A stretch of 64,000 nucleotides of DNA from the NCBI GenBank assembly GCA_000002445.1, contig CH464491.1, forward strand, positions 4,640,001 through 4,704,000. Direction: 5' to 3'. The position numbers and the translations under genes were made by a program. This stretch comes from Trypanosoma brucei (Eukaryota). The notes under the pieces are model-generated. The model did not search any database and was not told the origin of the DNA. It saw only the letters and a program-made list of their open reading frames with translations. Below are positions 1 through 47,869 of the stretch, piece after piece (position 1 is the stretch's first letter; each line of letters begins with the position of its first letter).

Positions 1-829
1 TATGTTTTGTTGGAAAGTGGTTTCCCGTTATACCAAACCTATGAGTGTTCTCATGGACTTCTTCCGACCTAAGCACTCGCTTCGCATAAGCAATGATGTC
101 GGGGATCCATGTGACTCGCAACTGTGGTAAATCAGCGGCCTTTTTCGCCATTTCGTCACAAACCTCATTCGGTTTCACGCCACAATGGCCAAACACAAAT
201 TGCAGTCGGATACGTATCTTCCTTCTCTGAACTTGAAGCAGAAGCCTCCATAGTCGTCTCAGAATTGTGTCCGTTACGGCTAGAGAGCCTGTCTGCAGTG
301 CTGTTAACATTGACAGCGAGTCAGAGAAGATGGACAACCTGCTCGGTGTGCTTCTGTATGCCGCAAGCCATTTCAGCAGCCGTTGCAGTCCTATCTCTAA
401 TGCTACGCATTCCGCTCTGTAACTGCATGAGAGTTCCCCTGCTCCGGTTTTGAGTGCACAAATCAGCGTGTTGTTTCTATAGAGCAGGGCAGCTGCCCCG
501 GACTTCTCACCGAGGGACACGGATTCATCAGTCCACAATTCGTAGTGCTCTCGCCGCGGTGACTCCTTTCCCCTCCGTGCAAAATGCCGTGCAATCCACT
601 TCTCAGAAGCCTCCCTTTTGACATCGTCAGGGTCATCAGCGCACACAGGCTTTATCTGCGTGTGAAATTGTGGTCAGCAGCTGTGGCGAAGCGTCGATGT
701 CTCTAGTGGGTGCTCGCGTGGCTCAATGTGGAGGTGGGGATAAGACCGCATGATGCGGGAATGTAAGACTCTGACTGGGTGTTTGCTGTGGTATACTTCT
801 TCAACACTGCGCCGCAAACATCCGCCTCG

Positions 830-2928
830 TCACTCACACATCAGCATGAATTTCATGCTGCGCACAAGAGTGGTCGTCTTGAGTGGCAGGAGGTTTGCTT
901 CCAGCAGAGAGTCCTCTTTGCGCGTCCCATGCGGTATGCCAGCTATGATGCGACTGGCTTTGTGTTGTGCTGATGCAAGGAGGTCGCGATTTCGTTTCGA
1001 AGCGTCCCAGTACCATACCTCAATGCCATACATGGTGTGTGCCTGTACGAGTTCCAGATGAAAAGCTCTCAACACTTGTCGTCTTGGCCCCCATGTAGAA
1101 GCTGAGATGGCTGCTATCTGCAGTAGTCTGAAGTCCATCTTGCGTCTCGTTTCGGCCGCATGTGTTGCCATCCCCTGCAGACACTGGAATGTTACTCCTA
1201 GAAGCTTCGGTGTCCTGTCAGCTCCTATTCTTTCGCCGTCCAGTTGTAATGTAAGGTGATAGCGCTCTGTACACCCGAAGAGTGTGCACTTTGTTTTCGC
1301 TACGTTGACAGATATGAAGTACTCTTTTGACCACTGTAACACCACGTTTAGACCGCATTGTAGTGTGTGGTTGATGACATCCCTCTCTGTGTGCCTCGCA
1401 AGTAGCGTCAGGTCGTCTGCAAAGAATCCGTGCTGCAGCAACGGCACTTCTGCAAGGCGCTGGCTCAACGAGTTCATGACAATAATGAACATGATTGGGC
1501 CAAGGACAGCTCCTTGTGGGACTCCTCGCTCAAATGTTCTGCTGCTGGAAATCTTCTCCTTGAATCTCACTCTGCCAGTTCGGTTACTCAGAAATGATAC
1601 GCACCACTTCACAATGTGGGGTGATACCTTCATTCTGTGCATTTTCCTCGCAATTTTGTCGTGGTCTACTGTATCGAATGCCTTCTCGTAGTCAACGAAT
1701 ACAGCACCCGTACGATATTGGTGCGTGGGACGGCAGAGGGCAGCGCGGATGTGCAGGAGTTGTTCGAGCGTTGAGCATCCGTGGCAAAAGCCTGATTGCT
1801 GCGTCGTCAGCTGGGACTCAACAGTGTCTCTAAGCCTCGCGGCAATTATGCGCTCCATGACTTTGCAGAGACAGCTCGTGGGCGTTACAGGCCTGTAAGA
1901 ATCGAGGTCCTCCGCCTTTTTTCCGGCATTCAGGATGGGGATGATAACACCGATCTTCCATGCAGACGGCACGACTCCCGTTCGTATGTTTTCATAGAAT
2001 AGCTTCAGAACAACATTCAGCGCTGTTCTACCGAGATGTTCAGTGCCTCGTTGTATAAGCAATCAGGTCCGGCTGCGGATCCACTCGGTAGCAGTTTGAT
2101 CGATCTCCGTAGTTCAGCCATCGTGATGAGACTGAACTCACTCGCTATCGTCTTTATTGGTGCCGGTGGGTGTGAGTCGGGGTGCCTTCTTGCGCGGGAC
2201 GAGTACAGTTTAATGAACCTCTCAGCTTGACGGTAGTCCGTGATGGCCGCGTTATCAACAAGTACAGCCGGTGTGGTTAGTGGTCGTGGCGCATATACCT
2301 TCTTGACAATGTGGCAACTGCAGCGGTCTGACACCGCAAGTCTGGAGCATAGCGTGCTCCATCTCTTCTTTGTGGTACGGTCCAGGATCTGCTTACGCGT
2401 GGTTACCAACTTTTCCCTTCGGTGGGAGGGTCCGCATCCAGCGATCTCTTCATCGAGTTTCGCGAGCTCAGGTGTCCAATGTGGTGGCGTTACTCTGCAG
2501 CCACGGGGGACGGAGACCTTCGTTGCAATGCGGATGGCGGAGCTCAATTTCTGTTCCAGGGTGTTGACGTTCTTCTCTCTACCAATTTTCCTGCAGAGCT
2601 CGTCAACCTTGAGACGGAAATTCCTCCAGTTAGCTTTTAGCCATGCGTACATGGGCTTTCGAAGCCGCGGGCAACTCAGTGCATCTGTGTCGTCTACAAC
2701 GATAACGTCGAAAAATATGTGATGGTGATCGCTATCGGGAGAATACAGCGATGTCCACGTGTACACTGTACAATTCCTTGACAGTGTCACATCAGGGGTG
2801 GACTCCCCGTGGTGGCGTGTGTAAATGGCGCACTCACCAGTGTTGCAGACCAGAAACTGGTTGTCAATGCACCACTGTGTGAGGGTTTCACCCTTGGTAT
2901 TTGGTGGGTTCGCGCGATCCCATGCCAA
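830..2928 (-). pseudogene. ingi pol reverse-transcriptase region, split over two frames (ORFs 2017-2928 and 830-2062).
   Basis: Contains the RT motif GFFADDLTLLA and is co-linear with the RT ORFs of the other copies. The frame break shows it is a pseudogene. Confidence 0.85.
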
Positions 2929-3602
2929 CGCGTGTGCGTTAGCGTCTGCACCGATGAGAGCTGGGCACCGTCAGTCGTCAGAAGCGTATCTAGGTCAGTT
3001 GCCGTGAAGGTGTGTTTTGGTGGGATGTATGCCGACGTGACAGTCAGCGCCGTTCCACGTGCAAGGTGAATTGTTGCATGCACTTGTTCAATGCGACCAA
3101 CAACGGCCATACCGGTCTCGACTGGTAGGTCCTCCCTCACTAGTATTGATACACCACCTCCTTTGCAGTTACGAGCTATTTCGTGATGTTGGTAGCCAGC
3201 AACGCTAAAGCAAGCCGCCTCTTCAGGCGTCATCCTTGTCTCGCTCAACAGACAAAAGGCGATCCGCTCATCAACAAGGGTTTTGTGGAGTGCTAATCTC
3301 TTTCCTTGAGATAGCCCGGCACAGTTCCACTGCATCCCGCGCAACGACGGGCCGGGATTCTCTTCCACATCACCGGACAGCAGCATCTTAGTGCGGATGA
3401 TACTGCTGATGGTACGCTGGCACGTGCCCAGGGACAGACAAATGAAAAACGGTGTCCCAGCAAGACGCTGCTGATCCTTGTGCTGTATGATGCTGTAGCC
3501 GGAGCAAAGCAGTGTTTCCCATGAAAGGAACGCTGCTGGCTCTTGGCTTCCCCCGATGATACGGGGTACTGGACCCTGGAACCACGTTGAGGTGGCCGGC
3601 AT
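2787..3602 (-). CDS. ingi pol N-terminal segment: apurinic/apyrimidinic-like endonuclease domain with 2A-like LLSGDVEENPGP motif. The pol frame is disrupted.
   Basis: 271-aa ORF, nearly identical to the APE segments of copies 1, 2 and 5. Confidence 0.85.
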   Translation of the reverse strand: MPATSTWFQGPVPRIIGGSQEPAAFLSWETLLCSGYSIIQHKDQQRLAGTPFFICLSLGTCQRTISSIIRTKMLLSGDVEENPGPSLRGMQWNCAGLSQGKRLALHKTLVDERIAFCLLSETRMTPEEAACFSVAGYQHHEIARNCKGGGVSILVREDLPVETGMAVVGRIEQVHATIHLARGTALTVTSAYIPPKHTFTATDLDTLLTTDGAQLSSVQTLTHTRWHGIARTHQIPRVKPSHSGALTTSFWSATLVSAPFTHATTGSPPLM

Positions 3603-3635
3603 CGCCAGGGAACGAAGCTCAAAGAAAGCGGCGCC

Positions 3636-4834
3636 ATGCAGCTATCCGGTCTAGCAAAAAAAATGGCAGGTGTTGCGGTAAAAGGCATAGCAGCAAAAGC
3701 AGCCAAACTGAAAGACAGTTTTCCGGAGGAAGCTTTGCCAGCAGACGCATCAAAACAAGCGGCAACTGCAGCAGCTAAAAAGCTCCGGGATGCGGCGTTC
3801 GGGGGAGTGGACACAGCACTAAGCACGCTAACTCAGGCAACGACGTTCGGCGGTACACCAGCAAACAACAGGGACGTCGAATGCAAGACACAGGGGCCGG
3901 GCAAAGGCACACATACTGCTCTAGCAGCGCTAGCATGTGTCTGCTGGCAGGGAAACACAAACACGGTGACACACGGTGTATGCAACAAAGCGATGGAAGG
4001 TCAAACAGGTTGGAACGGAAACAGCAACAAACCGGACGCGACGAGCCTTATCAAGCTCGGCAAAAGTTGCGGACCGGCCGGCAAACAAAAGGTAACAGCG
4101 GAGCGAATTCGTGCAGCCGTAAATTCACTGAGGAAGCTTATAACCGGCCACGACTCCGGCAACCTATACCTAGGCACTTTTATCACAACCGATTGCTCAG
4201 GATCAGCAGGAAGCGGTGTCTGCATCGAATTCACAAACTTAGCAGGCGGCACAGAAGACCCGCTGACCAAACTGCCCTGGATCAACAAGGTGGAGGCAGC
4301 GGCAGCCGAACTGGAGAAACTGACGCAGGTTTCGCACAAGGCGCAAGCAATCAACATCAACTAGGAGGAGCAGAAACCGAAGCGAACCAAGCGATCAAAC
4401 AGGCTGTGGCAGAAGCAGAAGAAATAAGTAAAGGTAACAACAACCCGACTGTAGTGGCGCCAGCACTAAGTAAGACAATCTGCGAAGCTCACAACAAGTC
4501 CAAGACGGAATGCCTAGGTGCTCAATGTAAATGGGGTGGCAAAAAGGATGATGACGGCCCATGCATAGTAAATGAAAGCAAAGTTGCAGAACAAACAACC
4601 CAAACAGGGGCAGGAGAAAAGAAAGACGGGGCAGCTTCAAATGGGTGTGCAAAACATGGAACCAATAAGGAGGCTTGTGAAAGTGACAAAACAGGCGACA
4701 AACAAAATTGTGCATGGAGGAAGGGGAAAGATAATGAAGATGACAAAGATACAGAGAAGTGCCGAAATGCTAGTTTTCTAGTAACCAAACAATTAGCCAT
4801 GATGGTTTCTGCATTTATGGCCTTGCTTTTTTAA
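3636..4834 (+). pseudogene. VSG: VSG pseudogene A. It is 5'-truncated exactly at the 5' end of ingi copy L and has an internal frameshift near 4360.
   Basis: ORF 3636-4364 encodes the middle-to-late VSG N-terminal domain (ALACVCWQG, GNLYLGTF, LPWINKVEAAAAELEKL). ORF 3881-4834, in another frame, encodes the cysteine-rich C-terminal domain ending in the GPI signal CRNASFLVTKQLAMMVSAFMALLF. There is no signal peptide, and about 130 N-terminal residues are missing. Confidence 0.9.
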
Positions 4835-15569: not shown

Positions 15570-16990
15570 ATGCAGCATAAGACCCGCAACGCTGGCACAG
15601 CACTAGCGATACTTGCGGCACTAACCCTTGCCAGCTCGGCCCAACTCCATGAGTTAACCAAAACCATCGCAAGCGCTTGCGACGCTGCAGACCACCTGCA
15701 GTGGATGATAAACCACATTGACAGAACTGTAGCTGAGCAAGAACGGCAGATTGCCGACGGCCAAAAAACACTCGCAAGGGCGACGGCAGCTGCCCTGCTG
15801 ACGGCGAACGCGGGATCGGCCCTGTGGGCTCCGCTGCTAGCGACTATAGCAGAGAAACTTGAAGCGGCGCATACGGCACTGCAGACAGCGAAAAAGGCAG
15901 CCAGAACCGTCATTCCCAATTTAGGCGAACTCAAAGGAGCAGAACAAACTGTCTACGAGCTAACAGACCTCGAACTAAGTGCCCACGCGGACCAGGCGTC
16001 GGCGACGTTCCTTGGCAGCAACGGTGTACACCTGATAGCATCACCCATAAACCGGCAGGAACCCAAGTGCACGTCGGAACTAAACAAGAGCCCGAGACAA
16101 AAGGCAGGACAACCGCGTACGCACGACGCAAAGACGACAATCGACATATATCAGGCAGAAACAATCGCAAAATCAGCAACAAAAACGACCGGCCCACGGC
16201 TCTGTTCCAAAAGCGGTGCGACTGCCAGCGATTGCGCTGACCACAATGGCGCACAGACAAACAACATGCGGATCACGGGCGGAAAAATCCTCAGATCGAA
16301 AAAGGTAACTTACGAATCAGCAAACGATGCCAGACCAGAGTTCAAGGCGGAATCAGCGCACACAACGACCAAAACCGTCCTGCCCACAACGCAATACGTA
16401 ACAGCGAAACTAGCAGGGCTTGCACCGATCGAAGACAAGCTATCAAAGCTAAACTTCAAAGCAAGCACGTTAAAAGACGTTGGGATGACGAAGGAACCAA
16501 CCTTCAAGAAAATAGCAGCAGCGATTTACTTACCCGATGTAAGCCCAAGCGAGCTTCAAAGCAAAGACCAGGACTTAACTCAACTGGTCGAAAAACATTA
16601 TGGCAACGAACAAGGCACATTCGACAACAAAGTGTGGGGCACCTTAGCTACACTAGGGATCCCAAAGGCCGCATTGCTGGCAACAGACGACCAGAAGGTA
16701 GGATCCACAGACAACCTGGCACAGCTACAAGCAGCCGTGGCTTATTCCATTATTCGGCTAACAAAATCTAAAACTGACAAGCCCTCAGGCACGACCAACA
16801 ATAAAGAGGAGGAAAATGGTAACAAAGCAGATGCATCAGCAGACAAAACAGGAGATAAGTCAGACGGGAATTAAAAAGATGAGGTTTGCACAGGCACTGA
16901 AGAAAAAGATTGTGACACGAAAAAGTGTGATTGGAATAAGTAAAAGAAAGAGTGTAAAGTTAAATGGGGGCAGAAGTTACCTCTTATGTG
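15570..16990 (+). pseudogene. VSG: VSG pseudogene D. It has an intact ~435-codon N-terminal domain ORF, a frameshift entering the C-terminal domain, and a 3' end truncated by ingi copy 1.
   Basis: Signal peptide MQHKTRNAGTALAILAALTLASSAQ. The ORF runs to 16874. A +1 frame then reads CTGTEEKDCDTKKCDWNK..KECKVKW directly into the ingi 5' end at 16991. The ORF-track start at 15273 is an upstream read-through, not a real start. Confidence 0.9.
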
Positions 16991-16998
16991 CCCTGGCG

Positions 16999-17814
16999 AT
17001 GCCGGCCACCTCAACGTGGTTCCAGGGTCCAGTACCCCGTATCATCGGGGGAAGCCAAGAGCCAGCAGCGTTCCTTTCATGGGGAACACTGCTTTGCTCC
17101 GGCTACAGCATCATACAGCACAAGGATCAGCAGCGTCTTGCTGGGACACCGTTTTTCATTTGTCGGTCCCTGGGCACGCGCCAGCGTACCATCAGCAGTA
17201 TCATCCGCACTAAGATGCTGCTGTCCGGTGATGTGGAAGAGAATCCCGGCCCGTCGTTGCGCGGGATGCAGTGGAACTGCGCCGGGCTATCTCAAGGAAA
17301 GAGATTAGCACTCCACAAAACCCTTGTTGATGAGCGGATCGCCTTTTGTCTGTTGAGCGAGACAAGGATGACGCCTGGAGAGGCGGCTTGCTTTAGCGTT
17401 GCTGGCTACCAACATCACGAAATAGCTCGTAACTGCAAAGGAGGTGGTGTATCAATACTAGTGAGGGAGGACCTACCAGTCGAGACCGGTATGGCCGTTG
17501 TTGGTCGCATTGAACAAGTGCATGCAACAATTCACCTTGCACGTGGAACGGCGCTGACTGTCACGTCGGCATACATCACACCAAAACACACCTTCACGGC
17601 AAATGACTTAGATACGCTTCTGACGACTGACGGTGCCCAGCTCTCATCGGTGCAGACGCTAACGCACACGCGTTGGCATGGGATCGCGCGAACCCACCAA
17701 ATACCAAGGGTGAAACCCTCACACAGTGGTGCATTGACAACCAGTTTCTGGTCTGCAACACTGGTGAGTGCACCATTTACACACGCCACCACGGGGAGTC
17801 CACCCCTGATGTGA
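16999..17814 (+). CDS. ingi pol segment 1: APE endonuclease domain with 2A-like LLSGDVEENPGP.
   Basis: MPATSTWFQGPVPRIIGG…TDGAQL. The frame is broken relative to the downstream RT ORF. Confidence 0.85.
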   Translation: MPATSTWFQGPVPRIIGGSQEPAAFLSWGTLLCSGYSIIQHKDQQRLAGTPFFICRSLGTRQRTISSIIRTKMLLSGDVEENPGPSLRGMQWNCAGLSQGKRLALHKTLVDERIAFCLLSETRMTPGEAACFSVAGYQHHEIARNCKGGGVSILVREDLPVETGMAVVGRIEQVHATIHLARGTALTVTSAYITPKHTFTANDLDTLLTTDGAQLSSVQTLTHTRWHGIARTHQIPRVKPSHSGALTTSFWSATLVSAPFTHATTGSPPLM

Positions 17815-19898
17815 CACTGTCAAGGAATTGTACAGTGTACACGTGGACATCGCTGTATTCTCCCGATAGCGATCACCATCACATATTTTTCGAGGTTATC
17901 GTTGGAGACGACACAGATGCACTGAGTTGCCCGCGGCTTCGAAAGCCCATGTGCGCATGGCTAAAAGCTAACTGGAGGAATTTCCGTCTCAAGGTTGACG
18001 AGCTCTGCAGGAAAATTGGTAGAGAGAAGAACGTCAACACCCTGGAACAGAAATTGAGCTCCGCCATCCGCATTGCGACGAAGGTCTCCGTCCCCCGTGG
18101 CTGCAACGCAACGCCACCACATTGGACACCTACGCTCGCGAAACTCGATGAAGAGATCGCTGGATGCGGACCCTCCCACCGAAGGGAAAAGTTGGTAACC
18201 ACGCGTAAGCAGATCCTGGACCGTACCACAAAGAAGAGATGGAGCACGCTATGCTCCAGACTTGCGGTGTCAGACCGCTGCAGTTGCCACATTGTCAAGA
18301 AGGTATATGCGGCACGACCACTAACCACACCGGCTGTACTTGTTGATAACGCGGCCATCACGGACTACCGTCAAGCTGAGAGGTTCATTAAACTGTACTC
18401 GTCCCGCGCAAGAAGGCACCCCGACTCACACCCACCGGCACCAATAAAGACGATAGCGAGTGAGTTCAGTCTCATCACGATGGCTGAACTACGGAGATCG
18501 ATCAAACTGCTACCGAGTGGATCCGCAGCCGGACCTGATTGCTTATACAACGAGGCACTGCAACACCTCGGTAGAACAGCGCTGAATGTTGTTCTGAGGC
18601 TATTCAATGAGAGCCTACGAACGGGAGTCGTGCCGTCTGCATGGAAGACTGGTGTTATCATCCCCATCCTGAATGCCGGAAAAAAGGCGGAGGACCTCGA
18701 TTCTTACAGGCCTGTAACGCCCACGAGCTGTCTCTGCAAAGTCATGGAGCGCATAATTGCCGCGAGGCTTAGAGACACTGTTGAGTCCCAGCTGACGACG
18801 CAGCAATCAGGCTTTTGCCACGGATGCTCAACGCTCGAACAACTCCTGCACATCCGCGCTGCCCTCTGCCGTCCCACGCACCAATATCGTACGGGTGCTG
18901 TATTCGTTGACTACGTGAAGGCATTTGATACAGTAGACCACGACAAAATTGCGAGGGAAATGCACAGAATGAAGGTATCACCCCACATTGTGAAGTGGTG
19001 CGTATCATTTCTGAGTAACCGAACTGGCAGAGTGAGATTCAAGGAGAAGCTTTCCAGCAGCAGAACATTTGAGCGAGGAGTGCCACAAGGAACTGTACTT
19101 GGCCCAATCATGTTCATTATTGTCATGAACTCGTTGAGCCAGCGCCTTGCAGAAGTGCCGTTACTGCAGCACGGATTCTTTGCAGACGACCTGACGCTAC
19201 TTGCGAGGCACACAGAGAGGGATATCATCAACCACACACTGCAATGCGGTCTAAACGTGGTGTTACAGTGGTCAAAAGAGTACTTCATGTCTGTCAACGT
19301 AGCGAAAACAAAGTGCACACTCTTCGGGTGTACAGAGCGCTATCACCTTACATTACAACTGGACGGCGAAAGAATAGGAGCTGACAGGACACCGAAGCTT
19401 CTAGGAATAACATTCCAGTGTCTGCAGGGGGTGGCAACACATGCGGCCGAAACGAGATGCAAGATGGACTTCAGACTACTGCAGATAGCAGCCATCTCAG
19501 CTTCTACATGGGGGCCAAGACGACAAGTGTTGAGAGCTTTTCATCTGGAACTCGTACAGGCACACACCATGTATGGCATTGAGGTATGGTACTGGGACGC
19601 TTCGAAACGAAGTCGCGACCTCCTTGCATCAGCACAAAACAAAGCCAGTCGCATCATAGCCGGCATACCGCATGGGACGCGCAAAGAGGACTCTCTGCTG
19701 GAAGCAAACCTCCTGCCACTCAAGACGACCACTCTTGTGCGCAGCATGAAATTCATGCTGATGTGTGATTCACGAGGCGGATGTTTGCGCTGCAGTGGTG
19801 AAGAAGTATACCACAGCAAACATCCAGTCAGAGTCTTACATTCCCGCATCATGCTGTCCTACCCCACCTCCACATTGAGCCACGCGAGCACCCACTAG
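17673..19898 (+). CDS. ingi pol segment 2: reverse transcriptase (741 aa).
   Basis: RT motifs including GFFADDLTLLARHTE. Confidence 0.85.
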   Translation: MAWDRANPPNTKGETLTQWCIDNQFLVCNTGECTIYTRHHGESTPDVTLSRNCTVYTWTSLYSPDSDHHHIFFEVIVGDDTDALSCPRLRKPMCAWLKANWRNFRLKVDELCRKIGREKNVNTLEQKLSSAIRIATKVSVPRGCNATPPHWTPTLAKLDEEIAGCGPSHRREKLVTTRKQILDRTTKKRWSTLCSRLAVSDRCSCHIVKKVYAARPLTTPAVLVDNAAITDYRQAERFIKLYSSRARRHPDSHPPAPIKTIASEFSLITMAELRRSIKLLPSGSAAGPDCLYNEALQHLGRTALNVVLRLFNESLRTGVVPSAWKTGVIIPILNAGKKAEDLDSYRPVTPTSCLCKVMERIIAARLRDTVESQLTTQQSGFCHGCSTLEQLLHIRAALCRPTHQYRTGAVFVDYVKAFDTVDHDKIAREMHRMKVSPHIVKWCVSFLSNRTGRVRFKEKLSSSRTFERGVPQGTVLGPIMFIIVMNSLSQRLAEVPLLQHGFFADDLTLLARHTERDIINHTLQCGLNVVLQWSKEYFMSVNVAKTKCTLFGCTERYHLTLQLDGERIGADRTPKLLGITFQCLQGVATHAAETRCKMDFRLLQIAAISASTWGPRRQVLRAFHLELVQAHTMYGIEVWYWDASKRSRDLLASAQNKASRIIAGIPHGTRKEDSLLEANLLPLKTTTLVRSMKFMLMCDSRGGCLRCSGEEVYHSKHPVRVLHSRIMLSYPTSTLSHASTH

Positions 19899-20080
19899 AG
19901 ACATCGACGCTCCGCCACAGCTGCTGACCACAATTTCACACGCAGATAAAGCCTGTGTGCGCTGATGACCCTGACAATGTCAAAAGGGAGGCTTCCGAAA
20001 AGTGGATTAAACGGCATTTTGCACGGAGGGGGAAGGAGTCACCGCGACGAGAGCACTACGAATTTTGAACTGATGAATCC

Positions 20081-21973
20081 GTGTCCCTCGGTGAGAAGTC
20101 CGGGGCAGCTGCCCTGCTCTATAGAAACAACACGCTGATTTGTGCACCCAAAACCGGAGCAGGGGAACTCTCATGCAGTTACAGAGCGGAATGCGTAGCA
20201 TTAGAGATAGGACTGCAACGGCTGCTGAAATGGCTTGCGGCATACAGAAGCACACCGAGCAGGTTGTCCATCTTCTCTGACTCGCTGTCAATGTTAACAG
20301 CACTGCAGACAGGCTCTCTAGCCGTAACGGACACAATTCTGAGACGACTATGGAGGCTTCTGCTTCAAGTTCAGAGAAGGAAGATACGTATCCGACTGCA
20401 ATTTGTGTTTGGCCATTGTGGAGTGAAACGGAATGAGGTTTGTGACGAAATGGCGAAAAAGGCCGCTGATTTACCACAGTTGCGAGTCACATGGATCCCC
20501 GACATCATTGCTTATGCGAAGCGAGTGCTTAGGTCGGAAGAAGTCCATGAGAACACTCATAGGTTTGGTATAACGGGAAACCACTTTCCAACAAAACATA
20601 AAGAAGAACTGACGAGGGAAGAAGAAACGGGACTGGAACGCTTTCGGGTTGGGTCTTCAAGACACTATGGATGGATGTTGCGAAAGATCAACCCGAGTGT
20701 GCCTCCACAGTGCCGATGGTGTAACCCGCAACATGCAGCGATCGGGCCAACAATACAAACAGCCTCAACTGTTGCGACACGTACTCTTCAGAGAACCTCC
20801 GAACCGACCAAATGTACGGAATGTGATGCCACATACCAATGCCGCTCGAGTGCTGTAACGCACATGGTAAACAAACATGGCTTTGTGCGAGCTGATGCCC
20901 TCCGGAGGATCAAATACGGCGATGCAACACCTGCAGTGGACATCCCCCCGGAGCCCCCTCCAGTGGTGGCGATTGTTCCTCTACCATCGAGCACACGAGT
21001 CCCAATGAGAGCACATGTGCTTCATTGTACCCTCTGTGCCTCCAAATTCGCAGTGCCAGGCCGACTACTACACCACCTTCAAACAATACATGGCATAGGC
21101 AGCGGTAGTTGCCGCGTGGAAAGGGGGCGAGAAAACGAAGACTCAGTGCAAGGAGATGGTAGAGCCCCAGCAGCGCCAGCCTCTCAGGATACACGGAAGC
21201 TGCCGTTTCAATGTGACCTGTGCGAGGCGAGCATTGGTACACGCTCTTCCCTGTCACTACACAAGAAATTCAAACATAAGAGCATAGTGACGGAGGACGG
21301 TACCGTGGTGGTGGTGCAATTCCCTCGTAAGCGTGCCCGTGAGGGAAACGTTGACGTCCCGGGGAAAGGCGAGGTGCAGTGTGGTGTGTGCCAAAAAGTG
21401 CTCAGTTGCAGGGACTCCCTCATCCGACACTGTAAGGCTTTCCACAAAGGTGAGGGAATCGAGCTTAAATGCAGCAAAAGCATGAAATTGTGTGCCACTG
21501 ATTCCCCGCATACAAACACATCCATGTTGGTGTGCCCGACATGCGGAAGTCAGTGTGCTAGCAAAACTGGCCTCACCCTACATCAAAAGAAGATGCACGA
21601 TATGAAGGTAGAGCACGCTGTTACCAGCCAACGCGGCGACTGCGAAGAAACGTCACTGCACTTGATGAGCTGTCCCGGTTTGAAGGAGTTACGTGTCAGG
21701 TTTGCGGTAGAAAGTGTGTGTGTGCAGGATGTATGTTTCTTTAAAAGGCTGGCGCAGTTTCTCATTGCGGTTGAACGGAGCAGGCCGCAGGTGAAGTCTT
21801 CCCCTAATGTAACAGTCATACAACCCACTCTCCCTTCTGCAACTTCCCCCCTTATTGCTGAGAGTGGAGCTAGCAGGAAAAGCACTGGACGCAGGAATAG
21901 TCCAGACACCCTCAGAGACAGAGAGGGTATGCAGTCAACAAGCAACAGAAACAGAAAGAGGGGAAGAGAATAA
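20081..21973 (+). CDS. ingi pol segment 3: RNase H plus five C2H2-type zinc fingers (630 aa).
   Basis: RNase H region WTDGSV / AECVALEIGL / FSDSLS / GHCGVKRNEVCDEMAKKA. Zinc fingers include CTECDATYQCRSSAVTHMVNKHG, CTLCASKFAVPGRLLHHLQTIHG, CDLCEASIGTRSSLSLHKKFKHK, CGVCQKVLSCRDSLIRHCKAFHKG and CPTCGSQCASKTGLTLHQKKMH. Confidence 0.85.
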   Translation: MSLGEKSGAAALLYRNNTLICAPKTGAGELSCSYRAECVALEIGLQRLLKWLAAYRSTPSRLSIFSDSLSMLTALQTGSLAVTDTILRRLWRLLLQVQRRKIRIRLQFVFGHCGVKRNEVCDEMAKKAADLPQLRVTWIPDIIAYAKRVLRSEEVHENTHRFGITGNHFPTKHKEELTREEETGLERFRVGSSRHYGWMLRKINPSVPPQCRWCNPQHAAIGPTIQTASTVATRTLQRTSEPTKCTECDATYQCRSSAVTHMVNKHGFVRADALRRIKYGDATPAVDIPPEPPPVVAIVPLPSSTRVPMRAHVLHCTLCASKFAVPGRLLHHLQTIHGIGSGSCRVERGRENEDSVQGDGRAPAAPASQDTRKLPFQCDLCEASIGTRSSLSLHKKFKHKSIVTEDGTVVVVQFPRKRAREGNVDVPGKGEVQCGVCQKVLSCRDSLIRHCKAFHKGEGIELKCSKSMKLCATDSPHTNTSMLVCPTCGSQCASKTGLTLHQKKMHDMKVEHAVTSQRGDCEETSLHLMSCPGLKELRVRFAVESVCVQDVCFFKRLAQFLIAVERSRPQVKSSPNVTVIQPTLPSATSPLIAESGASRKSTGRRNSPDTLRDREGMQSTSNRNRKRGRE

Positions 21974-22727
21974 TAAACGAATAACAAAAATCAAAACAAA
22001 AGGATTGCTAATTGACATCTTTTAGAGAGTCTGGGGTGGGGGCTTCTCGCCCCATCTGCTGTATTCCGTTCAACTGCGGAAAAACAACAAAAATTATAGA
22101 GAGTGTGTTAGGCTGAATAAAAAAGGGAGACTCTGCCACAGTCGCCAGACCGATAGCATCTCAGGGCTCTACAGTGATGGCTGATGCCCGAGCCTGTGGG
22201 GGGAAACTCCCACGAAGGCACGAAGAAAAATTTTTAAAAAATGTTCTTCTATTGAAAGAAAATCTGCATTCACACTATGCAAGGTTACTTTCTTGTTTAA
22301 GCGTTTGACATCAGGATTCATGAGCAGAATAAAAACCACAGTTGCTACAATCTCTCTACTTGTACAAATTTTTTTTTGAGTATAATATGGAGAATCTGTG
22401 GTTGCTCCTTCGTCTTCCTGTGGGGCCGTGAATACAGTTGATTTGTTTTGTTCCTGTGTAGAGCACTATCATAGCACATAACGTAAAACGTTTAGTAGCC
22501 ATGTACACAGCACTAAATCTCTCCATCTCTTTCCACTCCATCATCTCCCGTGCATTTTCAATTCATTTTTTAAAATTAAAACTAACCATGTTTTATCTAC
22601 ATTTCTTTCTCTCTCCCCTTTAATAATATTCTTCGTGCTCTCTCTCACACCCCCTCTTATTTCCATTGCACAAAAATATCGCTTTAAGTGCTTCTATTAT
22701 TCTAGTCCATTTATTCTTCAACACTGT

Positions 22728-22832
22728 TCTTATTATAATATTCGTATATATATACACTCACAACACTCCCCTATTATTATTATTATTATTATCATTATTA
22801 TTACTTCTGTTATTATTATTAGCATTTTAACC
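22728..22832 (-). repeat. 70-bp repeat, reverse orientation.
   Basis: CTTATTATAATATTCGTATATATATACACTCACAACACTCCCCTATTATTATT…, the reverse complement of the 70-bp core plus a TAA run. It lies ~265 bp downstream of minus-strand VSG-E. Confidence 0.85.
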
Positions 22833-23094
22833 CTAACTAATGTTCATAAAATAAACCAAAAAAAATCAGTATAACACCCATTTTTCATACCTATAATCTT
22901 ACTACTTTACACACGGGTTACTTTCATACAAAACTTTTTCATATTTTTACATTTTCACTAATCTGTGCATTATCGCCAAAAAGTGTCAAAGCATATCAAA
23001 TTTTCTCAAAGTAGCAAAGTTTCATAAATTTCACAAAACTGAGAAAAAAGTTTATAATGATAGAATTCTACCAAATACATAAAGAAAGAAGCTA

Positions 23095-24619
23095 TCAGAT
23101 CCATTTTTTATTTACGAGAACACTACAATTTCGGCACCTAAGCTTGTCCTTATCCTTGTCACCTTCACCGTCTTTCTTCCACGCACATACATGTTTCTCC
23201 TTCCCTTCATTCATTTTCTCACAAGCGTTTTTATCATTGAAGTGCGCTGCACACCCCGTTGTTTTTTCTCCTGCTTCTCCTCCTGCTCCTCCTGTATTGG
23301 TCTGAGTTGTATCTTTACTCTCATCTTCTTTGGATGTGCCTTTGTCCTCAGTATTTCCATCCCATTTGCAGTTATTTTCTGTGCAGGTTTCATTTGTGGT
23401 GTGCCGCCTGAAAGCTTTGGCGCTGGGCGCTGTTTTGTGCGGCTTTGTTGCAGACTGTGTAGCGGTGATTTCATCGGGGTCGGCTGCTAGTGTCTGTAGG
23501 GCTTGCTTTAAGCTCCTCAGCCGCATGCTTATGGTATGGCGAAGGTTCGCCTTTTTATGGATACTATCCATAGCTTCTGCCGCCTCTCTGAGGGCTACCA
23601 TCCAAGGTATTGTTGTTCCGGCTGCTTTCGTATAGGCCTTTTTGTATTGGACGCAGCGACCATTGTTGTTGTTGGCGCTGTCGCCGTCGCACCCTGTGTT
23701 GCCGGTGCCGTCGATTTTCCCCAGAAAGAAGGCTTTGTCGAAATTGGTTGTTTGTGGTTGAGATATTAACTTGATAAAGTTCTGCAGTGCCGTGTTTATT
23801 GTTTCTTTAGTTAAATGCACAGCATTTGATATCCTGTCACAGTGGTACCGGAATTTTACCCAGTCTGTTTGAGCGTCAGTGCCTGCTGTGAGCGCCACGG
23901 CCGGGTTGTTTTCAAGTTTGTGCGCACTTTGAGTCCGCCGGCTGCGCCGCCGCTGTGTTTGCCACAGAGGCACATCACATCCTGTTTGAGGCTCGCTCCG
24001 GCAATGTTATCTGTTTCCGTGCCGGCCGGGCTGCTACAAGTTCAGGCCATTGTTTTGCCGAGCGGAATGGTTTTAGCAACTGAATCTGTTGGTTCGTTTC
24101 CGATTAATGCCTCTTTTAGTTTTTTTTTCGACCGTTTGGACGTCTTTTGAAAAGTCTGTGTTGGCTATGTCGTCTTCTAAAAGTACTGCTTCGCGTGCTA
24201 GTCTGTGAAGTTGATTAGTTGTTTCTTTCTTGAGTTTCCGGTTCGCCCACTTTAGTAACACCTCGTTTCCGTTATTATTTTTGTTGTATTTTGCGCCTTT
24301 TTTGCCGAAGCCCCAGGCTTGTTGGGTGCATGCCTGTTTTGCGCTGTTCGATTCATCTAGCTGAACATACTCCTTTTCGAGTCTTTCTATTGCCGCTGCT
24401 GTTACGTTTTGGCCGCCTGCGGTTAGGTTTACCGCTGCTATGACATCTATTATGTCGCTGTCGGTTATGTCGTCTTTGGGGCCGCTGTAAGGCGCTTTCG
24501 CTATGGCCACGAGCGCGCAGATCGATGCGTAGGCTTCGGCCTTGTCTGCCGCTGTCGGTTCAGCTGCCTCTACTGGTTTGAAGCTAGCGCACAGTAGCAA
24601 AAAAAGCGCCGCTAGTCAT
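23095..24619 (-). pseudogene. VSG: VSG pseudogene E, with a frameshift between 23973 and 24073 and a GPI signal truncated by a stop.
   Basis: Signal peptide MTSGAFFLLLCASFKPVEA (ATG at 24619). ORFs 24073-24600 and 23095-23973 (CTENNCKWDGNTEDK…CAWKKDGEGDKDKDKLRCRNCSVLVNKKWI*). Confidence 0.88.
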
Positions 24620-37506: not shown

Positions 37507-37583
37507 CTAGTTCGATTCATCTGCTTGAATGTGTAACTTGTTAGTTTGATGCTGTATGCTTGCTTGTCTTAGCCACCCTGGCG

Positions 37584-39986
37584 ATGCATGCTACCTCAAC
37601 GTGGTTCCAGGGTCCAGTACCCCGTATCATCGGGGGAAGCCAAGAGCCAGCAGCGTTCCTTTCATGGGGAACACTGCTTTGCTCCGGATACGGCATCATA
37701 CAGCACAGGGATCAGCAGTGTCTTGCTGGGACACCGTTTTTCATTTGTCGGTCCCTGGGCACGCGCCAGCGTACCATCAGCAGTATCATCCGCACTAAGA
37801 TGCTGCTGTCCGGTGATGTGGAAGAGAATCCCGGCCCGTCGTTGCGCGGGATGCAGTGGAACTGCGCCGGGCTATCTCAAGGAGAGAGATTAGCACTCCA
37901 CAAAACCCTTGTTGATGAGCGGATCGCCTTTTGTCTGTTGAGCGAGACAAGGATGACGCCTGGAGAGGCGGCTTGCTTTAGCGTTGCTGGCTACCAACAT
38001 CACGAAATAGCTCGTAACTGCAAAGGAGGTGGTGTATCAATACTAGTGAGGGAGGACCTACCAGTCGAGACCGGTATGGCTGTTGTTGGTCGCATTGAAC
38101 AAGTGCATGCAACAATTCACCTTGCACGTGGAACGGCGCTGACTGTCACGTCGGCATACATCCCACCAAAACACACCTTCACGGCAACTGACCTAGATAC
38201 GCTTCTGACGACTGACGGGGCCCAGCTCATCGGTGTAGAGGCTAACGCACACGCGTTGGCATGGGATCGCGCGAGCCCACCAAATACCAAGGGTGAAACC
38301 CTCACACAGTGGTGCATTGACAACCAGTTTCTGGTCTGCAACACTGGTGAGTGCGCCATTTACACACGCCACCACGGGGAGTCCACCCCTGATGTGACAC
38401 TGTCAAGGAATTGTACAGTGTACACGTGGGCATCGCTGTATTCTTCCGATAGCGATCACCATCACATATTTTTCGAGGTTATCGTTGGAGACGACACAGA
38501 TGCACTGAGTTGCCCGCGGCTTCGAAAGCCCATGTACGCATGGCTAAAAGCTGACTGGAGGAATTTCCGTCTCAAGGTTGACGAGCTCTGCAGGAAAATT
38601 GGTAGAGAGAAGAACGTCAACACCCTGGAACAGAAATTGAGCTCCGCCATCTGCATTGCAACGAAGGTCTCCGTCCCCCGTGGCTGCAGAGTAACGCCAC
38701 CACATTGGACACCTGAGCTCGCGAAACTCGATGAAGAGATCGCTGGATGCGGACCCTCCCACCGAAGGGAAAAGTTGGTAGCCACGCGTAAGCAGATCCT
38801 GGACCGTACCACAAAGAAGAGATGGAGCACGCTATGCTCCAGACTTGCGGTGTCAGACCGCTGCAGTTGGCACATTGTCAAGAAGGTATATGCGCCACGA
38901 CCACTAACCACACCGGCTGTACTTGTTGATAACGCGGCCATCACGGACTACCGTCAAGCTAAGAGGTTCATTAAACTGTACTCGTCCCGCGCAAGAAGGC
39001 ACCCCGACTCACACCCACCGGCACCAATAAAGACGATAGCGAGTGAGTTCAGTCCCATCACGATGGCTGAACTACGGAGATCGATCAAACTGCTACCGAG
39101 TGGATCCGCAGCCGGACCTGATTGCTTATACAACGAGGCACTGCAACATCTCGGCAGAACAGCGCTGAATGTTGTTCTGAGGCTATTCAATGAGAGCCTA
39201 CGAACGGGAGTCGTGCCACCTGCATGGAAGACTGGTGTTATCATCCCCATCCTGAAGGCCGCAAAAAAGGGGGAGGACCTCGAATCTTATAGGCCTGTGA
39301 CGCTCACGAGCTGTCTCTGCAAAGTCATGGAACGCATAATTGCCGCGAGACTTAGAGACACTGTTGAGTCCCAGCTGACGCCGCAGCAATCAGGCTTTCG
39401 CCCCGGATGCTCAACGCTCGAACAACTCCTGCACGTCCGCGCTGCCCTCTGCCGTCCAACGCACCAATATCGTACGGGTGCTGTATTCGTTGACTACGAG
39501 AAGGCATTTGATACAGTAGACCACGACAAAATTGCGAGGGAAATGCACAGAATGAAGGTATCATCCCACATTGTGAAGTGGTGCGTATCATTTCTGAGTA
39601 ACCGAACTGGCAGAGTGAGATTCAAGGAGAAGCTTTCCAGAAGCAGAACATTTGAGCGAGGAGTGCCACAAGGAACTGTCCTTGGCCCAATCATGTTCAT
39701 TATTGTCATGAACTCGTTGAGCCAACGCCTTGCAGAAGTGCCGTTACTGCAGCACGGATTCTTTGCAGACGACCTGACGCTACTTGCGAGGCACACAGAG
39801 AGGAATGTCATCAACCACACAGTACAATGCGGTCTCAACGTGGTGTTACAGTGGTCAAAAAAGGACTTTATGTCTGTCAACGTAGCGAAAACAAAGTGCA
39901 CACTCTTCGGGTGTATAGAGCGCCACCCCCTTACATTACAACTGGACGGCGAAAGAATAGGAGCTGACAGGCACCGAAGCTTCTAG
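37584..39986 (+). CDS. ingi pol: APE endonuclease and N-terminal RT fused in one ORF (~800 aa). This is the longest open frame in the window.
   Basis: MHATSTWFQGPVP…LLSGDVEENPGP…through the RT to GERIGADRHRSF*. The downstream RNase H and zinc-finger parts are in other frames, so the element is still a pseudogene. Confidence 0.8.
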   Translation: MHATSTWFQGPVPRIIGGSQEPAAFLSWGTLLCSGYGIIQHRDQQCLAGTPFFICRSLGTRQRTISSIIRTKMLLSGDVEENPGPSLRGMQWNCAGLSQGERLALHKTLVDERIAFCLLSETRMTPGEAACFSVAGYQHHEIARNCKGGGVSILVREDLPVETGMAVVGRIEQVHATIHLARGTALTVTSAYIPPKHTFTATDLDTLLTTDGAQLIGVEANAHALAWDRASPPNTKGETLTQWCIDNQFLVCNTGECAIYTRHHGESTPDVTLSRNCTVYTWASLYSSDSDHHHIFFEVIVGDDTDALSCPRLRKPMYAWLKADWRNFRLKVDELCRKIGREKNVNTLEQKLSSAICIATKVSVPRGCRVTPPHWTPELAKLDEEIAGCGPSHRREKLVATRKQILDRTTKKRWSTLCSRLAVSDRCSWHIVKKVYAPRPLTTPAVLVDNAAITDYRQAKRFIKLYSSRARRHPDSHPPAPIKTIASEFSPITMAELRRSIKLLPSGSAAGPDCLYNEALQHLGRTALNVVLRLFNESLRTGVVPPAWKTGVIIPILKAAKKGEDLESYRPVTLTSCLCKVMERIIAARLRDTVESQLTPQQSGFRPGCSTLEQLLHVRAALCRPTHQYRTGAVFVDYEKAFDTVDHDKIAREMHRMKVSSHIVKWCVSFLSNRTGRVRFKEKLSRSRTFERGVPQGTVLGPIMFIIVMNSLSQRLAEVPLLQHGFFADDLTLLARHTERNVINHTVQCGLNVVLQWSKKDFMSVNVAKTKCTLFGCIERHPLTLQLDGERIGADRHRSF

Positions 39987-40012
39987 GAGTAACATTCCAG
40001 TGTCTGCAAGGA

Positions 40013-42379: not shown

Positions 42380-42837
42380 AGTCCTCACCTAAGGTAACAG
42401 TCATACAACCCACTCTCCCTTCTGCAACTTCCCCCCTTATTGCCGAGTGTGGAGCTAGCAGGAAAAGCACCGGACGCGGGAGTAGTCCAGACACCCTCAG
42501 AGACAGAGGAGGTATGCAGTCAGCAAGCAACAAAAACAGAAAGAGGGAGAGGGGGAGAGAATAATAAACAAATAACAAAAATCAAAACAAAAGGACTGCT
42601 AATTGACATCTTTTGGAGAGTCCGGGGTGGGGGGCTTCTCGCCCCATCTGCTGTATTCTGTTCAACTGCGGAGCTACAACAAAAATTATAGAGGGTGTGT
42701 TAGGATGAATAAAAAAAGGGAGACTCTGCCACAGTCGCCAGACCGATAGCATCTCAGGGCTCTACGGTGATGGCTGATGGCCGCGCCAGTGGGGGGAAAC
42801 TCTCACGAAGGCACGAAGAAAATTCCAAAAAAAAAAA

Positions 42838-43491
42838 TGAGCTGGGCACCGTCAGTTGTCAGAAGCGTATCTAGGTCAGTTGCCGTGAATGTGTATTTTG
42901 GTGGGATGTATCCCGACGTGACAGTCAGCGCCGTTTCACGTGCAAGGTGAAATGTTGCATGCACTTGTTCAATGCGACCAATAACGGCTATACCGGTCTC
43001 GACTGGTAGGTCCCCCCTCACTAGTATTGATACACCACCTCCTTTGCAGTTACGAGCTATTCCGTGATGTTGGTAGCCAGCAACGCTAAAGCAAGCCGCC
43101 CCTCCAGGCGTCATCCTTGTCTCACTCAACAAACAAAAGGCGATCCGCTCATCAACAAGGGTTTTGTGGAGTGCTAATCTCTTTCCTTGAGATAGCCCGG
43201 CGCAGTTCCACTGCATCCCGCGCGACGACGGGCCGGGATTCTCTTCCACATCACCGGACAGCAGCATCTTAGTGCGGATGATACTGCTGATGACACGCTG
43301 GCACGTGCCCAGGGACCGACAAATGAAAAACGGTGTCCCAGCAAGACGCTGCTGATCCCTGTGCTGTATGATGCCGTAGCCGGAGCAAAGCAGTGTTCCC
43401 CATGAAAGGAGCGCTGCTGGCTCTTGGCTTCCCCCGATGATACGGGGTACTGGACCCTGGCACCACGTTGAGGTGGCCGGCATCGCCAGGG
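42838..43491 (-). mobile_element. Inverted ingi 5' segment (ingi nt 1 to ~654), forming the 5' part of composite copy 3.
   Basis: The reverse complement begins CCCTGGCGATGCCGGCCACCTCAACGTGGTGCC… and encodes MPATSTWCQGPVPRIIGG…LLSGDVEENPGP…TDGAQL (ORF 42803-43483, minus). It abuts the poly(A) of copy 2 with no intervening unique sequence. Confidence 0.9.
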
Positions 43492-47768: not shown

Positions 47769-47869
47769 GTCCGCTGCCAGCCTGTACTTTTTCTGTATCT
47801 TCAGTAGGTCCTGCCTTTGTGTACGCCGCCTGCTGATTCCTGCTGTGAGTTCCTTCTGTAGCTCAGTCA

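What the first reader, a model, noticed from the sequence alone, without database searches (positions are those of the whole stretch)
16991..22832. ingi copy 1 sits exactly at the VSG orientation switch and lacks an obvious target-site duplication, suggesting a recombination breakpoint
All VSG cassettes left of copy 1 (3636-16990) are on the + strand, and all to the right (23095-37506) are on the - strand. The 5' end of copy 1 cuts VSG-D inside its C-terminal domain (...CDWNK..KECKVKW|ingi). The 3' flank (22246-22700) is not the rest of VSG-D. It is the region downstream of the reversed 70-bp repeat at 22728-22832, which belongs to the minus-strand cassette series. By periodicity a minus-strand VSG is expected at about 19.7-21.2 kb, where the ingi now is. 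The 12 bp before the element (ACCTCTTATGTG) and the sequence after its A-tract (TGTTCTTCTATTG) do not form a direct repeat. Together with the inverted partner ingi at 1-3610, whose 5' end likewise truncates VSG-A, this looks like inversion or translocation by ingi-ingi homologous recombination rather than simple insertion.
Basis: partly seen in the sequence, partly recalled or inferred. Interest (0 to 1): 0.55.

Follow-up and report, generated by a model that had tools for sequence, protein, structure and literature searches.

The report
Hybrid ingi at VSG strand switch
A complete, young ingi retrotransposon in a Trypanosoma brucei TREU927 chromosome 11 VSG array joins two oppositely oriented blocks of VSG cassettes and lacks its target-site duplication; this is the usual footprint of recombination between two ingi copies, a known kind of event, and the neighbouring inverted copy proposed as partner is not supported.

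Summary
The window is T. brucei TREU927 chromosome 11: VSG-D is exactly XP_829764.1.

**What is there**
- A full-length ingi (16991-22241, + strand) sits between plus-strand VSG cassettes (3611-16990) and minus-strand cassettes (22242-37575 and beyond).
- Its 5' end cuts VSG-D 12 codons before the stop. Its 3' end abuts unique DNA that runs into a minus-oriented 70-bp repeat.
- There is no 12-bp duplication (6/12 matches, chance level). The element has only 0.7% private substitutions, so decay cannot explain this.
- The 5' flank matches the published Tbingi target signature at 6 of 10 positions (P about 0.03). All five 5' flanks in the window match it (joint P below 5e-6).

**Interpretation**
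- Both junctions look like real insertion junctions, but from two different insertions. The element is therefore most likely a hybrid made by ingi-ingi homologous recombination.
- The specific idea of an inversion with copy L is not supported. L's 5' flank is VSG-A coding sequence from about codon 130, and the copy 1 3' flank does not encode the missing N-terminus. The cross-TSD match is 7/12 (P about 0.09), and there is no SNP breakpoint (P = 0.22).
- A mis-join in this gapped assembly cannot be excluded, and no cross-strain DNA was reachable.

This is a known kind of event and of low interest.

The parts
1..3610 (-). ingi copy L (element positions 1-3610, cut by the window edge). It is in inverted orientation to copy 1, with its 5' end at 3610.
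   Evidence: blastn gives 98.1% identity to copy 1. Its 5' flank matches the Tbingi target signature at 6/10 positions.
3611..4834 (+). VSG-A', a pseudogene lacking about 130 N-terminal residues where it meets the 5' end of L. It keeps its C-terminal domain, and the 3'UTR 16-mer lies just downstream at 4891-4906.
   Evidence: Pfam VSG_B profile positions 119-347 and Trypan_glycop_C. tblastn aligns it to residues 134-346 of a paralogue. The 16-mer was found.
15570..16990 (+). VSG-D. The 434-aa ORF 15570-16874 is exactly XP_829764.1 of TREU927. The C-terminal domain carries in-frame stops and a frameshift. The last 12 codons, the stop and the 3'UTR are missing.
16957..16990 (+). The 34-nt 5' flank of copy 1. 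It matches the published Tbingi/TbRIME target signature; the last 12 nt (ACCTCTTATGTG) would be the 5' TSD copy.
   Evidence: Signature taken from PMC3820030 section 3.3. Score 6/10 against a background mean of 2.58; P(score >=6) = 0.027-0.035.
16991..22241 (+). ingi copy 1, full length (5251 bp) with intact 5' and 3' ends. Its coding capacity is broken into three ORFs.
   Evidence: Collinear with the other copies. Exo_endo_phos, RVT_1, RNase_H and zf-C2H2 hits. 0.70% private substitutions.
22226..22241 (+). A/T-rich 3' tail of copy 1 (AAAAATTTTTAAAAAA), of the same form as the tails of the other copies.
22242..22603 (.). Unique 362-bp 3' flank. It is not the remainder of VSG-D, encodes no VSG, and has no homologue in the window. 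It is contiguous with the minus-oriented 70-bp-repeat region.
22604..22933 (-). 70-bp-repeat region of a minus-strand cassette whose VSG is missing. That VSG is expected at about 19.8-21.3 kb, where the ingi now lies.
   Evidence: Homology to 25582-25726, 29252-29385 and 35528-35712 in the same orientation, and to 13712-13858 in the opposite orientation. Repeat core at 22765 on the - strand.
23095..24600 (-). First VSG (frameshifted pseudogene) of the minus-strand series.
   Evidence: Pfam VSG_B and Trypan_glycop_C hits.
37576..47770 (+). ingi c2/c3 complex interrupting the minus series: a full-length ingi, then the reverse complement of ingi 1-653, then ingi 642 to its end. An exact 12-bp inverted duplication, GGTGCCCAGCTC, brackets the inverted piece. 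This is context showing ingi-ingi rearrangement in the same region.

Best explanation
Copy 1 is a hybrid ingi. One ingi retrotransposed, in sense orientation, into the GPI-signal codons of VSG-D in a plus-oriented array. Another ingi of the same young subfamily retrotransposed into the upstream region of a cassette in a minus-oriented array, about 490 bp from its 70-bp repeat. A later homologous crossover inside the two 5.25-kb elements joined the 5' part and 5' flank of the first to the 3' part and 3' flank of the second.

This leaves one intact-looking element with no target-site duplication, sitting exactly where the two arrays now converge. Steps shown: intact ends, non-contiguous flanks, no TSD, a young element, and the target signature at the 5' flank. 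Steps inferred: the crossover itself and its partner.

The geometry is unresolved. It could be a deletion between two direct copies that removed the original convergence point, an inversion, or an exchange with another subtelomere. The neighbouring inverted copy L is probably not the partner.
For: - Both element termini are complete and of the same form as in the other copies.
- VSG-D stops 12 codons before its stop codon. Neither its remainder nor the 16-mer 3'UTR motif follows the element.
- The 3' flank runs directly into a 70-bp repeat of the opposite cassette series.
- The TSD test gives 6/12, which is chance level. With 0.70% private substitutions in copy 1, decay is excluded.
- The 5' flank matches the published Tbingi target signature at 6/10 positions, P about 0.03. 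The five 5' flanks in the window score 5-8/10, joint P below 5e-6. So 5' flanks here are genuine insertion sites that stay attached to 5' halves.
- None of the four testable units in the window (c1, c2+c3, RIME, c5) has a TSD.
- Copies c3 and c5 show significant similarity breakpoints relative to the other copies.
- The c2/c3 complex has an internal inversion bracketed by an exact 12-bp inverted duplication. Exchange between ingi copies is therefore evident in this region.
- The literature states that ingi and RIME recombine and cause rearrangements between T. brucei subspecies (PMC2854126).
Against: - No reciprocal product or matching TSD partner is present in the window.
- No SNP breakpoint can be located in copy 1 relative to its closest relatives. 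Against L, P = 0.22. The c1/c4 change at about position 4870 is seen in all pairs and looks like rate heterogeneity.
- The signature match of the copy 1 flank alone is only moderately significant.
- The assembly has 100-N gaps nearby, so a mis-join through a 5-kb repeat would look identical.
- No other strain or read data could be consulted.
Confidence: 0.55

Rival explanations
1. Assembly mis-join. The TREU927 subtelomere assembly collapsed or chimerised two different ingi copies, possibly from different haplotypes or chromosomes, and so fused a plus-strand contig end to a minus-strand contig end.
For: - The window is a scaffolded draft region with four 100-N gaps and two single Ns. Two of the gaps lie inside ingi copies.
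- ingi is a repeat of about 5.25 kb with many copies.
- No TSD and non-contiguous flanks are exactly what a chimeric join gives.
Against: - Copy 1 is gap-free.
- It differs by about 1.8-2.3% from its closest relatives in the window, roughly one difference per 50 bp. Sanger reads could normally discriminate copies at that level.
- The other elements in the window also lack TSDs, which would need several independent mis-joins.
Confidence: 0.15
2. One reading: a crossover between the inverted pair L and copy 1 flipped the 13.4-kb block 3611-16990. That block formerly lay in minus orientation as part of the minus series.
For: - L and copy 1 are inverted, 98.1% identical, and have their 5' ends facing the block.
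- Undoing the inversion would put all VSGs in the window on one strand.
- The c2/c3 structure may be a local example of inversion between inverted ingi segments.
Against: - The reconstructed pre-inversion element would have L's 5' flank (VSG-A from about codon 130) and the copy 1 3' flank. That flank neither encodes the missing VSG-A N-terminus nor resembles a VSG, so at least one more event is still needed.
- The cross-TSD match is 7/12, P about 0.09.
- There is no breakpoint in the copy 1/L differences, although a reciprocal crossover need not leave one.
Confidence: 0.12
3. Rearrangement made during retrotransposition itself. Reverse transcription was primed at the site at 22242, and the 5' end of the cDNA was joined to a distant break in VSG-D. 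Alternatively, an ingi cDNA was captured in the repair of a double-strand break between two arrays. Either gives a TSD-less element that bridges unrelated DNA.
For: - The full tail abuts the 3' flank directly, and there is no TSD.
- From general knowledge, such insertion-coupled deletions and rearrangements are documented for human L1.
Against: - In this model the 5' junction would be an arbitrary site. Instead it matches the Tbingi target signature at 6/10 positions in the correct register, P about 0.03, like the other 5' flanks here.
- The element is full length to nucleotide 1. That is unusual for break-capture events.
Confidence: 0.1
4. An ordinary insertion into VSG-D at an already existing convergence point. 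The TSD and the VSG-D tail were lost afterwards by point mutation or by a small non-homologous deletion.
For: VSG arrays are rich in decayed pseudogenes, and several cassettes here lack the conserved 16-mer.
Against: - At 0.7% private substitutions, TSD decay to 6/12 has P below 1e-4.
- A deletion would have to end exactly at the last A of the tail.
- The 3' flank is not any part of a VSG-D-type tail or 3'UTR.
Confidence: 0.05

Closest known systems
ingi/RIME-mediated rearrangements in T. brucei genomes (T. b. brucei 927 versus T. b. gambiense comparison, PMC2854126)
   Same: The same element family acts as a dispersed homology substrate. [quoted passage not shown]
   Different: Those cases were defined by comparing two genomes, mostly in chromosome cores. 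Here the evidence is a footprint within one genome (no TSD, mismatched flanks) in a subtelomeric VSG array, and the partner is not identified.
Canonical Tbingi/TbRIME insertion (ingi4 subclade): 12-bp TSD preceded by a conserved target signature (Bringaud et al. 2004, as summarised in PMC3820030)
   Same: A full-length element with the characteristic 5' start, an A-rich tail, endonuclease/RT/RNase H/zinc-finger coding capacity, and an upstream signature match of 6/10.
   Different: The defining 12-bp direct repeat is absent, and the two flanks are not contiguous target DNA.
Retroelement recombination-mediated deletions and inversions (human L1/Alu, yeast Ty) - from general knowledge, not tested here
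   Same: A hybrid element with intact ends, no TSD, and flanks from two different loci.
   Different: In those systems the ancestral state is usually recovered from an outgroup genome.
Chimeric RHS pseudogenes around ingi/RIME in T. brucei (Bringaud et al. 2002, as summarised in PMC7563717)
   Same: Subtelomeric genes interrupted by ingi or RIME, with homologous recombination invoked to explain mixed flanks.
   Different: The interrupted genes here are VSG cassettes rather than RHS. As summarised there, the crossover involves the RHS 5' region upstream of the insertion site, not necessarily the retroelement itself.

Membership tests
Tbingi (ingi4 subclade) non-LTR retrotransposon | Conserved 5' terminus and full-length collinearity with other ingi and RIME copies | tested here: met
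   The element starts CCCTGGCGATGCCGGCCACC like all other copies. It aligns over 5.25 kb at 94-98% identity. Its ends (1-247 and 5004-5251) match the 500-bp RIME at 55485-55984.
Tbingi (ingi4 subclade) non-LTR retrotransposon | Coding capacity for AP-type endonuclease, reverse transcriptase, RNase H and zinc finger | tested here: met
   Exo_endo_phos (E = 2.5e-4, below Pfam's cut-off), RVT_1 (E = 7e-42), RNase_H (E = 1.7e-6) and zf-C2H2_4, spread over three broken ORFs. This is a degenerate, non-autonomous copy.
Tbingi (ingi4 subclade) non-LTR retrotransposon | A-rich 3' tail | tested here: met
   The tail AAAAATTTTTAAAAAA at 22226-22241 has the same form as in the other five copies.
Tbingi (ingi4 subclade) non-LTR retrotransposon | 12-bp target-site duplication | tested here: not met
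   6/12 matches at the junction, which is the mode of the null distribution. No match at any offset, and none to any other copy's flank.
Tbingi (ingi4 subclade) non-LTR retrotransposon | Upstream target signature AxxxxxxxTxxxGTxGGxTxxx^xTxTxxTxxxxx | tested here: met
   6/10 positions in fixed register, P = 0.027-0.035. The five 5' flanks together give P below 5e-6.
Hybrid element left by ectopic recombination between two retroelement copies | Both termini intact, but flanks not contiguous and no TSD | tested here: met
Hybrid element left by ectopic recombination between two retroelement copies | A reciprocal product, or parental sites with matching (swapped) TSDs | tested here: not met
   There is no swapped TSD among the five 5' and six 3' flanks in the window; the maximum is 8/12, within the null. 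The rest of the genome, including L's 3' flank, could not be reached.
Hybrid element left by ectopic recombination between two retroelement copies | An internal change of parentage (SNP breakpoint) | tested here: inconclusive
   Copy 1 stays closest to L and c4 along its whole length. Against L the maximum chi-square P is 0.22. Clear breakpoints exist in c3 and c5. If both parents belonged to the same 2%-divergent subfamily, a breakpoint would be invisible.
Subtelomeric VSG cassette array | Upstream 70-bp repeat, then a VSG (pseudo)gene, repeating every 3-4 kb in one orientation | tested here: met
   Pfam VSG domains and 70-bp cores alternate on the + strand left of copy 1 and on the - strand to its right.

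The most novel reading that the evidence does not exclude
Recombination between subtelomeric ingi copies may be so frequent that essentially every element in this part of the VSG archive is a hybrid. Here 0 of 4 testable units keep a TSD, although all 5' flanks keep the insertion signature. On this reading, inverted ingi pairs such as L and copy 1 act as hinges that flip or exchange whole blocks of VSG cassettes. That would make ingi a main architect of array strand switches and of archive reshuffling between strains.
Probability: 0.2. Interest if true: 0.45.

Novelty: new member of a known kind. Interest (0 to 1): 0.25.

Why it matters
VSG arrays are the silent archive for antigenic variation, so how they are reshuffled bears on how fast the repertoire diverges between strains. 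A documented ingi-ingi junction at an array strand switch would be one more concrete example of retroelements shaping that archive. The principle is already accepted for T. brucei and for eukaryotes in general. This locus lies in the long-published reference genome, so the gain is incremental. It also serves as a caution about possible mis-joins in the TREU927 subtelomeres.

Tried and rejected
- **Cross-strain or orthologous locus comparison.** Four encoding-contig look-ups returned nothing: VSG-D, the VSG at 26701-27906, the Lister 427 paralogue P0001, and the exact TREU927 protein P0003. No T. brucei DNA beyond the window was reachable. The other collections hold no trypanosome genomes, so they were not scanned.
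- **TSD search.** Ungapped best-match scans compared every 5' flank with every 3' flank, and the two 12-mers were searched window-wide with up to 2 mismatches. Only chance-level matches appeared.
- **Continuity test for the L x copy 1 inversion.** ORF and tblastn searches for the VSG-A N-terminus in 22242-22730 were negative.
- **SNP mosaic test.** Sliding identity, segment-wise divergence and maximum chi-square with permutation found no breakpoint for copy 1 against L.
- **Search for an orphan VSG tail next to any ingi 3' end.** The 16-mer motif was used as the probe. None was found.
- **Large duplications or an inverted duplication between the plus and minus blocks.** Only the 70-bp-repeat regions are shared.
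- **Rfam scan of 16800-23000.** No hits.
- **Literature.** Marcello & Barry 2007, Bringaud 2002 and Bringaud 2009 are not held in the library. What earlier work says about ingi at array strand switches could therefore not be checked.
- **3' transduction.** Considered and rejected, because no second A-tract plus TSD follows within the minus cassettes.
Full report
**Source.** The 434-aa ORF of VSG-D (window 15570-16871) is identical to XP_829764.1/EAN80652.1, 'variant surface glycoprotein (VSG), putative, Trypanosoma brucei brucei TREU927', on a 5,261,801-bp record. By my own knowledge of record sizes, that is chromosome 11 of the reference genome. The window contains four 100-N gaps (25875, 29665, 45952, 55187) and two single Ns. 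It is therefore a scaffolded subtelomeric region.

**Layout of the window.** blastn with copy 1 as query gives these elements:

| Element | Coordinates | Strand | Notes |
|---|---|---|---|
| L | 1-3610 | - | element positions 1-3610, 98.1% identical to copy 1, cut by the window edge |
| copy 1 | 16991-22241 | + | full length |
| c2 | 37576-42838 | + | full length |
| c3 | 42839-47770 | mixed | reverse complement of 1-653, then 642 to the end; contains a gap |
| c4 | 50726-55186 | - | 5' end lost in a gap |
| RIME | 55485-55984 | + | 500 bp |
| c5 | 57645-62790 | - | full length |

- Pfam VSG domains lie on the + strand at 3636-4834, 8767-9771 and 15273-16874. They lie on the - strand at 23095-24600, 26701-27906, 30658-31707 and 33645-34313.
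- VSG-C (11971-13425, + strand) has a typical signal peptide and C-terminal domain.
- 70-bp-repeat cores are on + at 10277 and 13768, and on - at 22765, 25670, 29890, 35689/35752 and 49813-50059.
- ingi and RIME make up about 40% of the window, so mere proximity of a switch to an ingi is not remarkable. What matters is the junction anatomy.

**5' junction.**
- The element starts at 16991 with the same bases as every other copy.
- VSG-D was aligned with the 92%-identical Lister 427 VSG P0001, which ends ...CKVKEGAAVISYV|MKAPLLLALLLS. It was also aligned at DNA level with VSG-C in this window.
- VSG-D runs, with two in-frame stops and a frameshift, up to ...TCTTATGTG (S-Y-V). It then lacks 12 codons, the stop and the 3'UTR with the TGATATATTTTAACAC motif. 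That motif is present after VSG-A and VSG-C.

**3' junction.**
- The tail AAAAATTTTTAAAAAA (22226-22241) has the same form as in the other copies, so the 3' end is complete.
- The next 362 bp (22242-22603) have no homologue in the window. They contain only ORFs of 62 aa or less, and VSG queries find nothing there.
- From 22604 the sequence is homologous to the other 70-bp-repeat regions, in the orientation of the minus series.
- In the minus series the VSG starts are 2.6-3.8 kb apart, and the 70-bp repeat lies 1.0-1.35 kb upstream of each start. The VSG belonging to this repeat would therefore have lain at about 19.8-21.3 kb, under the present ingi.

**No target-site duplication, and not through age.**
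- ACCTCTTATGTG against TGTTCTTCTATT gives 6/12. For random 12-mers the best match to this flank is 6 or 7 in most trials.
- Neither 12-mer occurs next to another ingi end.
- Copy 1 has 37 private substitutions in 5253 compared sites, or 0.70%.
- Even at 5% divergence between the two repeat copies, 5 or more mismatches in 12 has P = 1.8e-4. Decay is excluded.

**The 5' flank looks like a genuine insertion site.**
- PMC3820030 (section 3.3) gives the Tbingi/TbRIME target signature as 5'-AxxxxxxxTxxxGTxGGxTxxx^xTxTxxTxxxxx-3'. The 12 nt after the first nick form the TSD.
- Scored in fixed register, the flanks give: L 6/10, copy 1 6/10, c2 8/10, RIME 6/10 and c5 5/10.
- The background mean over the window is 2.58, with P(>=6) = 0.027. 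In 200,000 draws of five random positions, none reached the observed sum of 31.
- The 5' flanks here are therefore original retrotransposition targets. For copy 1 alone the evidence is moderate, with a likelihood ratio of roughly 10 by my estimate.
- An ingi that had inserted normally at this site would be followed by ACCTCTTATGTG and the rest of VSG-D. It is not.

**Inference.**
- Both ends are precise element termini, as insertion junctions are, and the 5' flank also carries the target signature. Yet they belong to two different loci.
- The simplest single event giving this is a homologous crossover within two ingi copies.
- A secondary deletion would have to end exactly at the last A of the tail.
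- A rearrangement made during retrotransposition would not be expected to place the 5' end on a signature-bearing site.

**Is L the partner? The tests possible inside the window say no.**
- A crossover between inverted copies swaps 3' flanks. L's 5' TSD candidate (TTGAGCTTCGTT) should then equal the copy 1 3' flank. It matches at 7/12 at one of three offsets, P about 0.09.
- L's 5' flank is VSG-A coding sequence starting at about residue 130. For the reconstructed parental element to be a simple insertion, 22242 onward would have to encode the VSG-A N-terminus on the minus strand. It does not. The inversion model therefore still needs another event.
- The 65 copy 1/L differences are spread without a significant breakpoint (maximum chi-square 5.5, permutation P = 0.22). 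At 39 of the 65 sites, one of the two copies differs from every other copy that can be compared there.
- A reciprocal crossover need not leave a detectable pattern, so the SNP test is uninformative rather than negative.

**Context that raises the prior for ingi-ingi exchange here.**
- None of the four testable units (c1, c2+c3, RIME, c5) has a TSD, and no swapped pair exists in the window.
- Similarity between copies is mosaic. c5 is 1.0-1.1% from c1 and c4 in 1501-2300 but 5.2-5.3% in 2301-3600. c3 is 6.5-7.5% from c1 and c4 in 2301-3600 but 0.9-1.6% in 3601-4870. The breakpoints have permutation P = 0.001.
- In the c2/c3 complex, the reverse complement of ingi 1-653 is bracketed by an exact 12-bp inverted duplication, GGTGCCCAGCTC. 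One reading is a nested antisense insertion with a 12-bp TSD at ingi 642-653, followed by inversion between the 653-bp inverted 5' segments. That reproduces the observed order exactly, but the site scores only 1/10 on the target signature. The other reading is twin priming, by analogy with human L1.
- PMC2854126 states that ingi and RIME recombine and cause rearrangements.

**What could not be done.**
- No other T. brucei assembly or read set was reachable.
- The ancestral arrangement, the partner element and the correctness of the assembly therefore remain open.
- Key papers on TREU927 array structure are not held in the library.

**Verdict.** The general interpretation, a recombination junction at an ingi, is the best-supported explanation at about 0.55. 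The specific L x copy 1 inversion is disfavoured at about 0.12, and an assembly mis-join remains a real rival at about 0.15. The phenomenon is of a known kind and of low to moderate interest.

Noticed in passing
window 42839-43503 (within the c2/c3 complex 37576-47770): Directly after the poly(A) of c2 comes the reverse complement of ingi 1-653, followed by ingi 642 to its end. The inverted piece is bracketed by an exact 12-bp inverted duplication, GGTGCCCAGCTC (rc of 42839-42850 equals 43492-43503). Twelve bp is the ingi TSD length. Two readings fit: a nested antisense insertion followed by inversion between the inverted 5' segments, or a twin-priming-type 5' inversion. The inverted piece is 4.1% divergent from the 5' end of c2.
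   Followed up: partly
window: 5' flanks at 3611-3644(-), 16957-16990(+), 37542-37575(+), 55451-55484(+), 62791-62824(-): All five ingi/RIME 5' flanks match the published Tbingi target signature at 5-8 of 10 positions (joint P below 5e-6). Four of the five also share ATG at positions -27 to -25, whereas the quoted signature lists only the T. Yet none of the four units with both ends present (c1, c2+c3, RIME, c5) has a 12-bp TSD.
   Followed up: partly
window 50340-50725 (- strand), next to the 3' end of ingi c4: The poly(A) of c4 is followed on the same strand by the C-terminal part of a VSG. It has a cysteine-rich C-terminal-domain motif and a hydrophobic GPI-signal-like end, ...SNSFVINKAPLVLAFLIIA. 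This ingi therefore sits inside a minus-strand VSG, and the minus series continues to at least 50.7 kb. Pfam gave no hit. A BLASTP comparison to the C-terminal domain of VSG-C gave E = 0.009.
   Followed up: partly
window ingi copies c3 (42839-47770) and c5 (57645-62790): Similarity among ingi copies is mosaic. c5 is about 1% from c1 and c4 only in element positions 1501-2300. c3 is 0.9-1.6% from c1 and c4 only in 3601-4870, and 5-7% elsewhere. This indicates gene conversion or recombination among copies, or recombinant source elements.
   Followed up: partly
window 25875-25974, 29665-29764, 45952-46051, 55187-55286; single Ns at 46094 and 57653: There are 100-N assembly gaps: two inside long (TAT)n runs of 70-bp-repeat regions and two inside ingi copies. 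The 5' end of c4 is lost in one of them. Structure in this region should be treated as a draft.
   Followed up: no
window 15570-16874: VSG-D is carried in the databases as a protein (XP_829764.1, 'VSG, putative', 434 aa). In fact it ends at an internal stop within its C-terminal region and lacks a usable C-terminal domain and GPI signal, so it is effectively a pseudogene.
   Followed up: yes
window 55985-57644 and 62791-64000: The DNA flanking the RIME and c5 at the right end of the window has no VSG, ingi or Pfam-recognisable content in its longer ORFs and no repeats within the window. Its nature (RHS or DIRE remnants?) was not established.
   Followed up: partly
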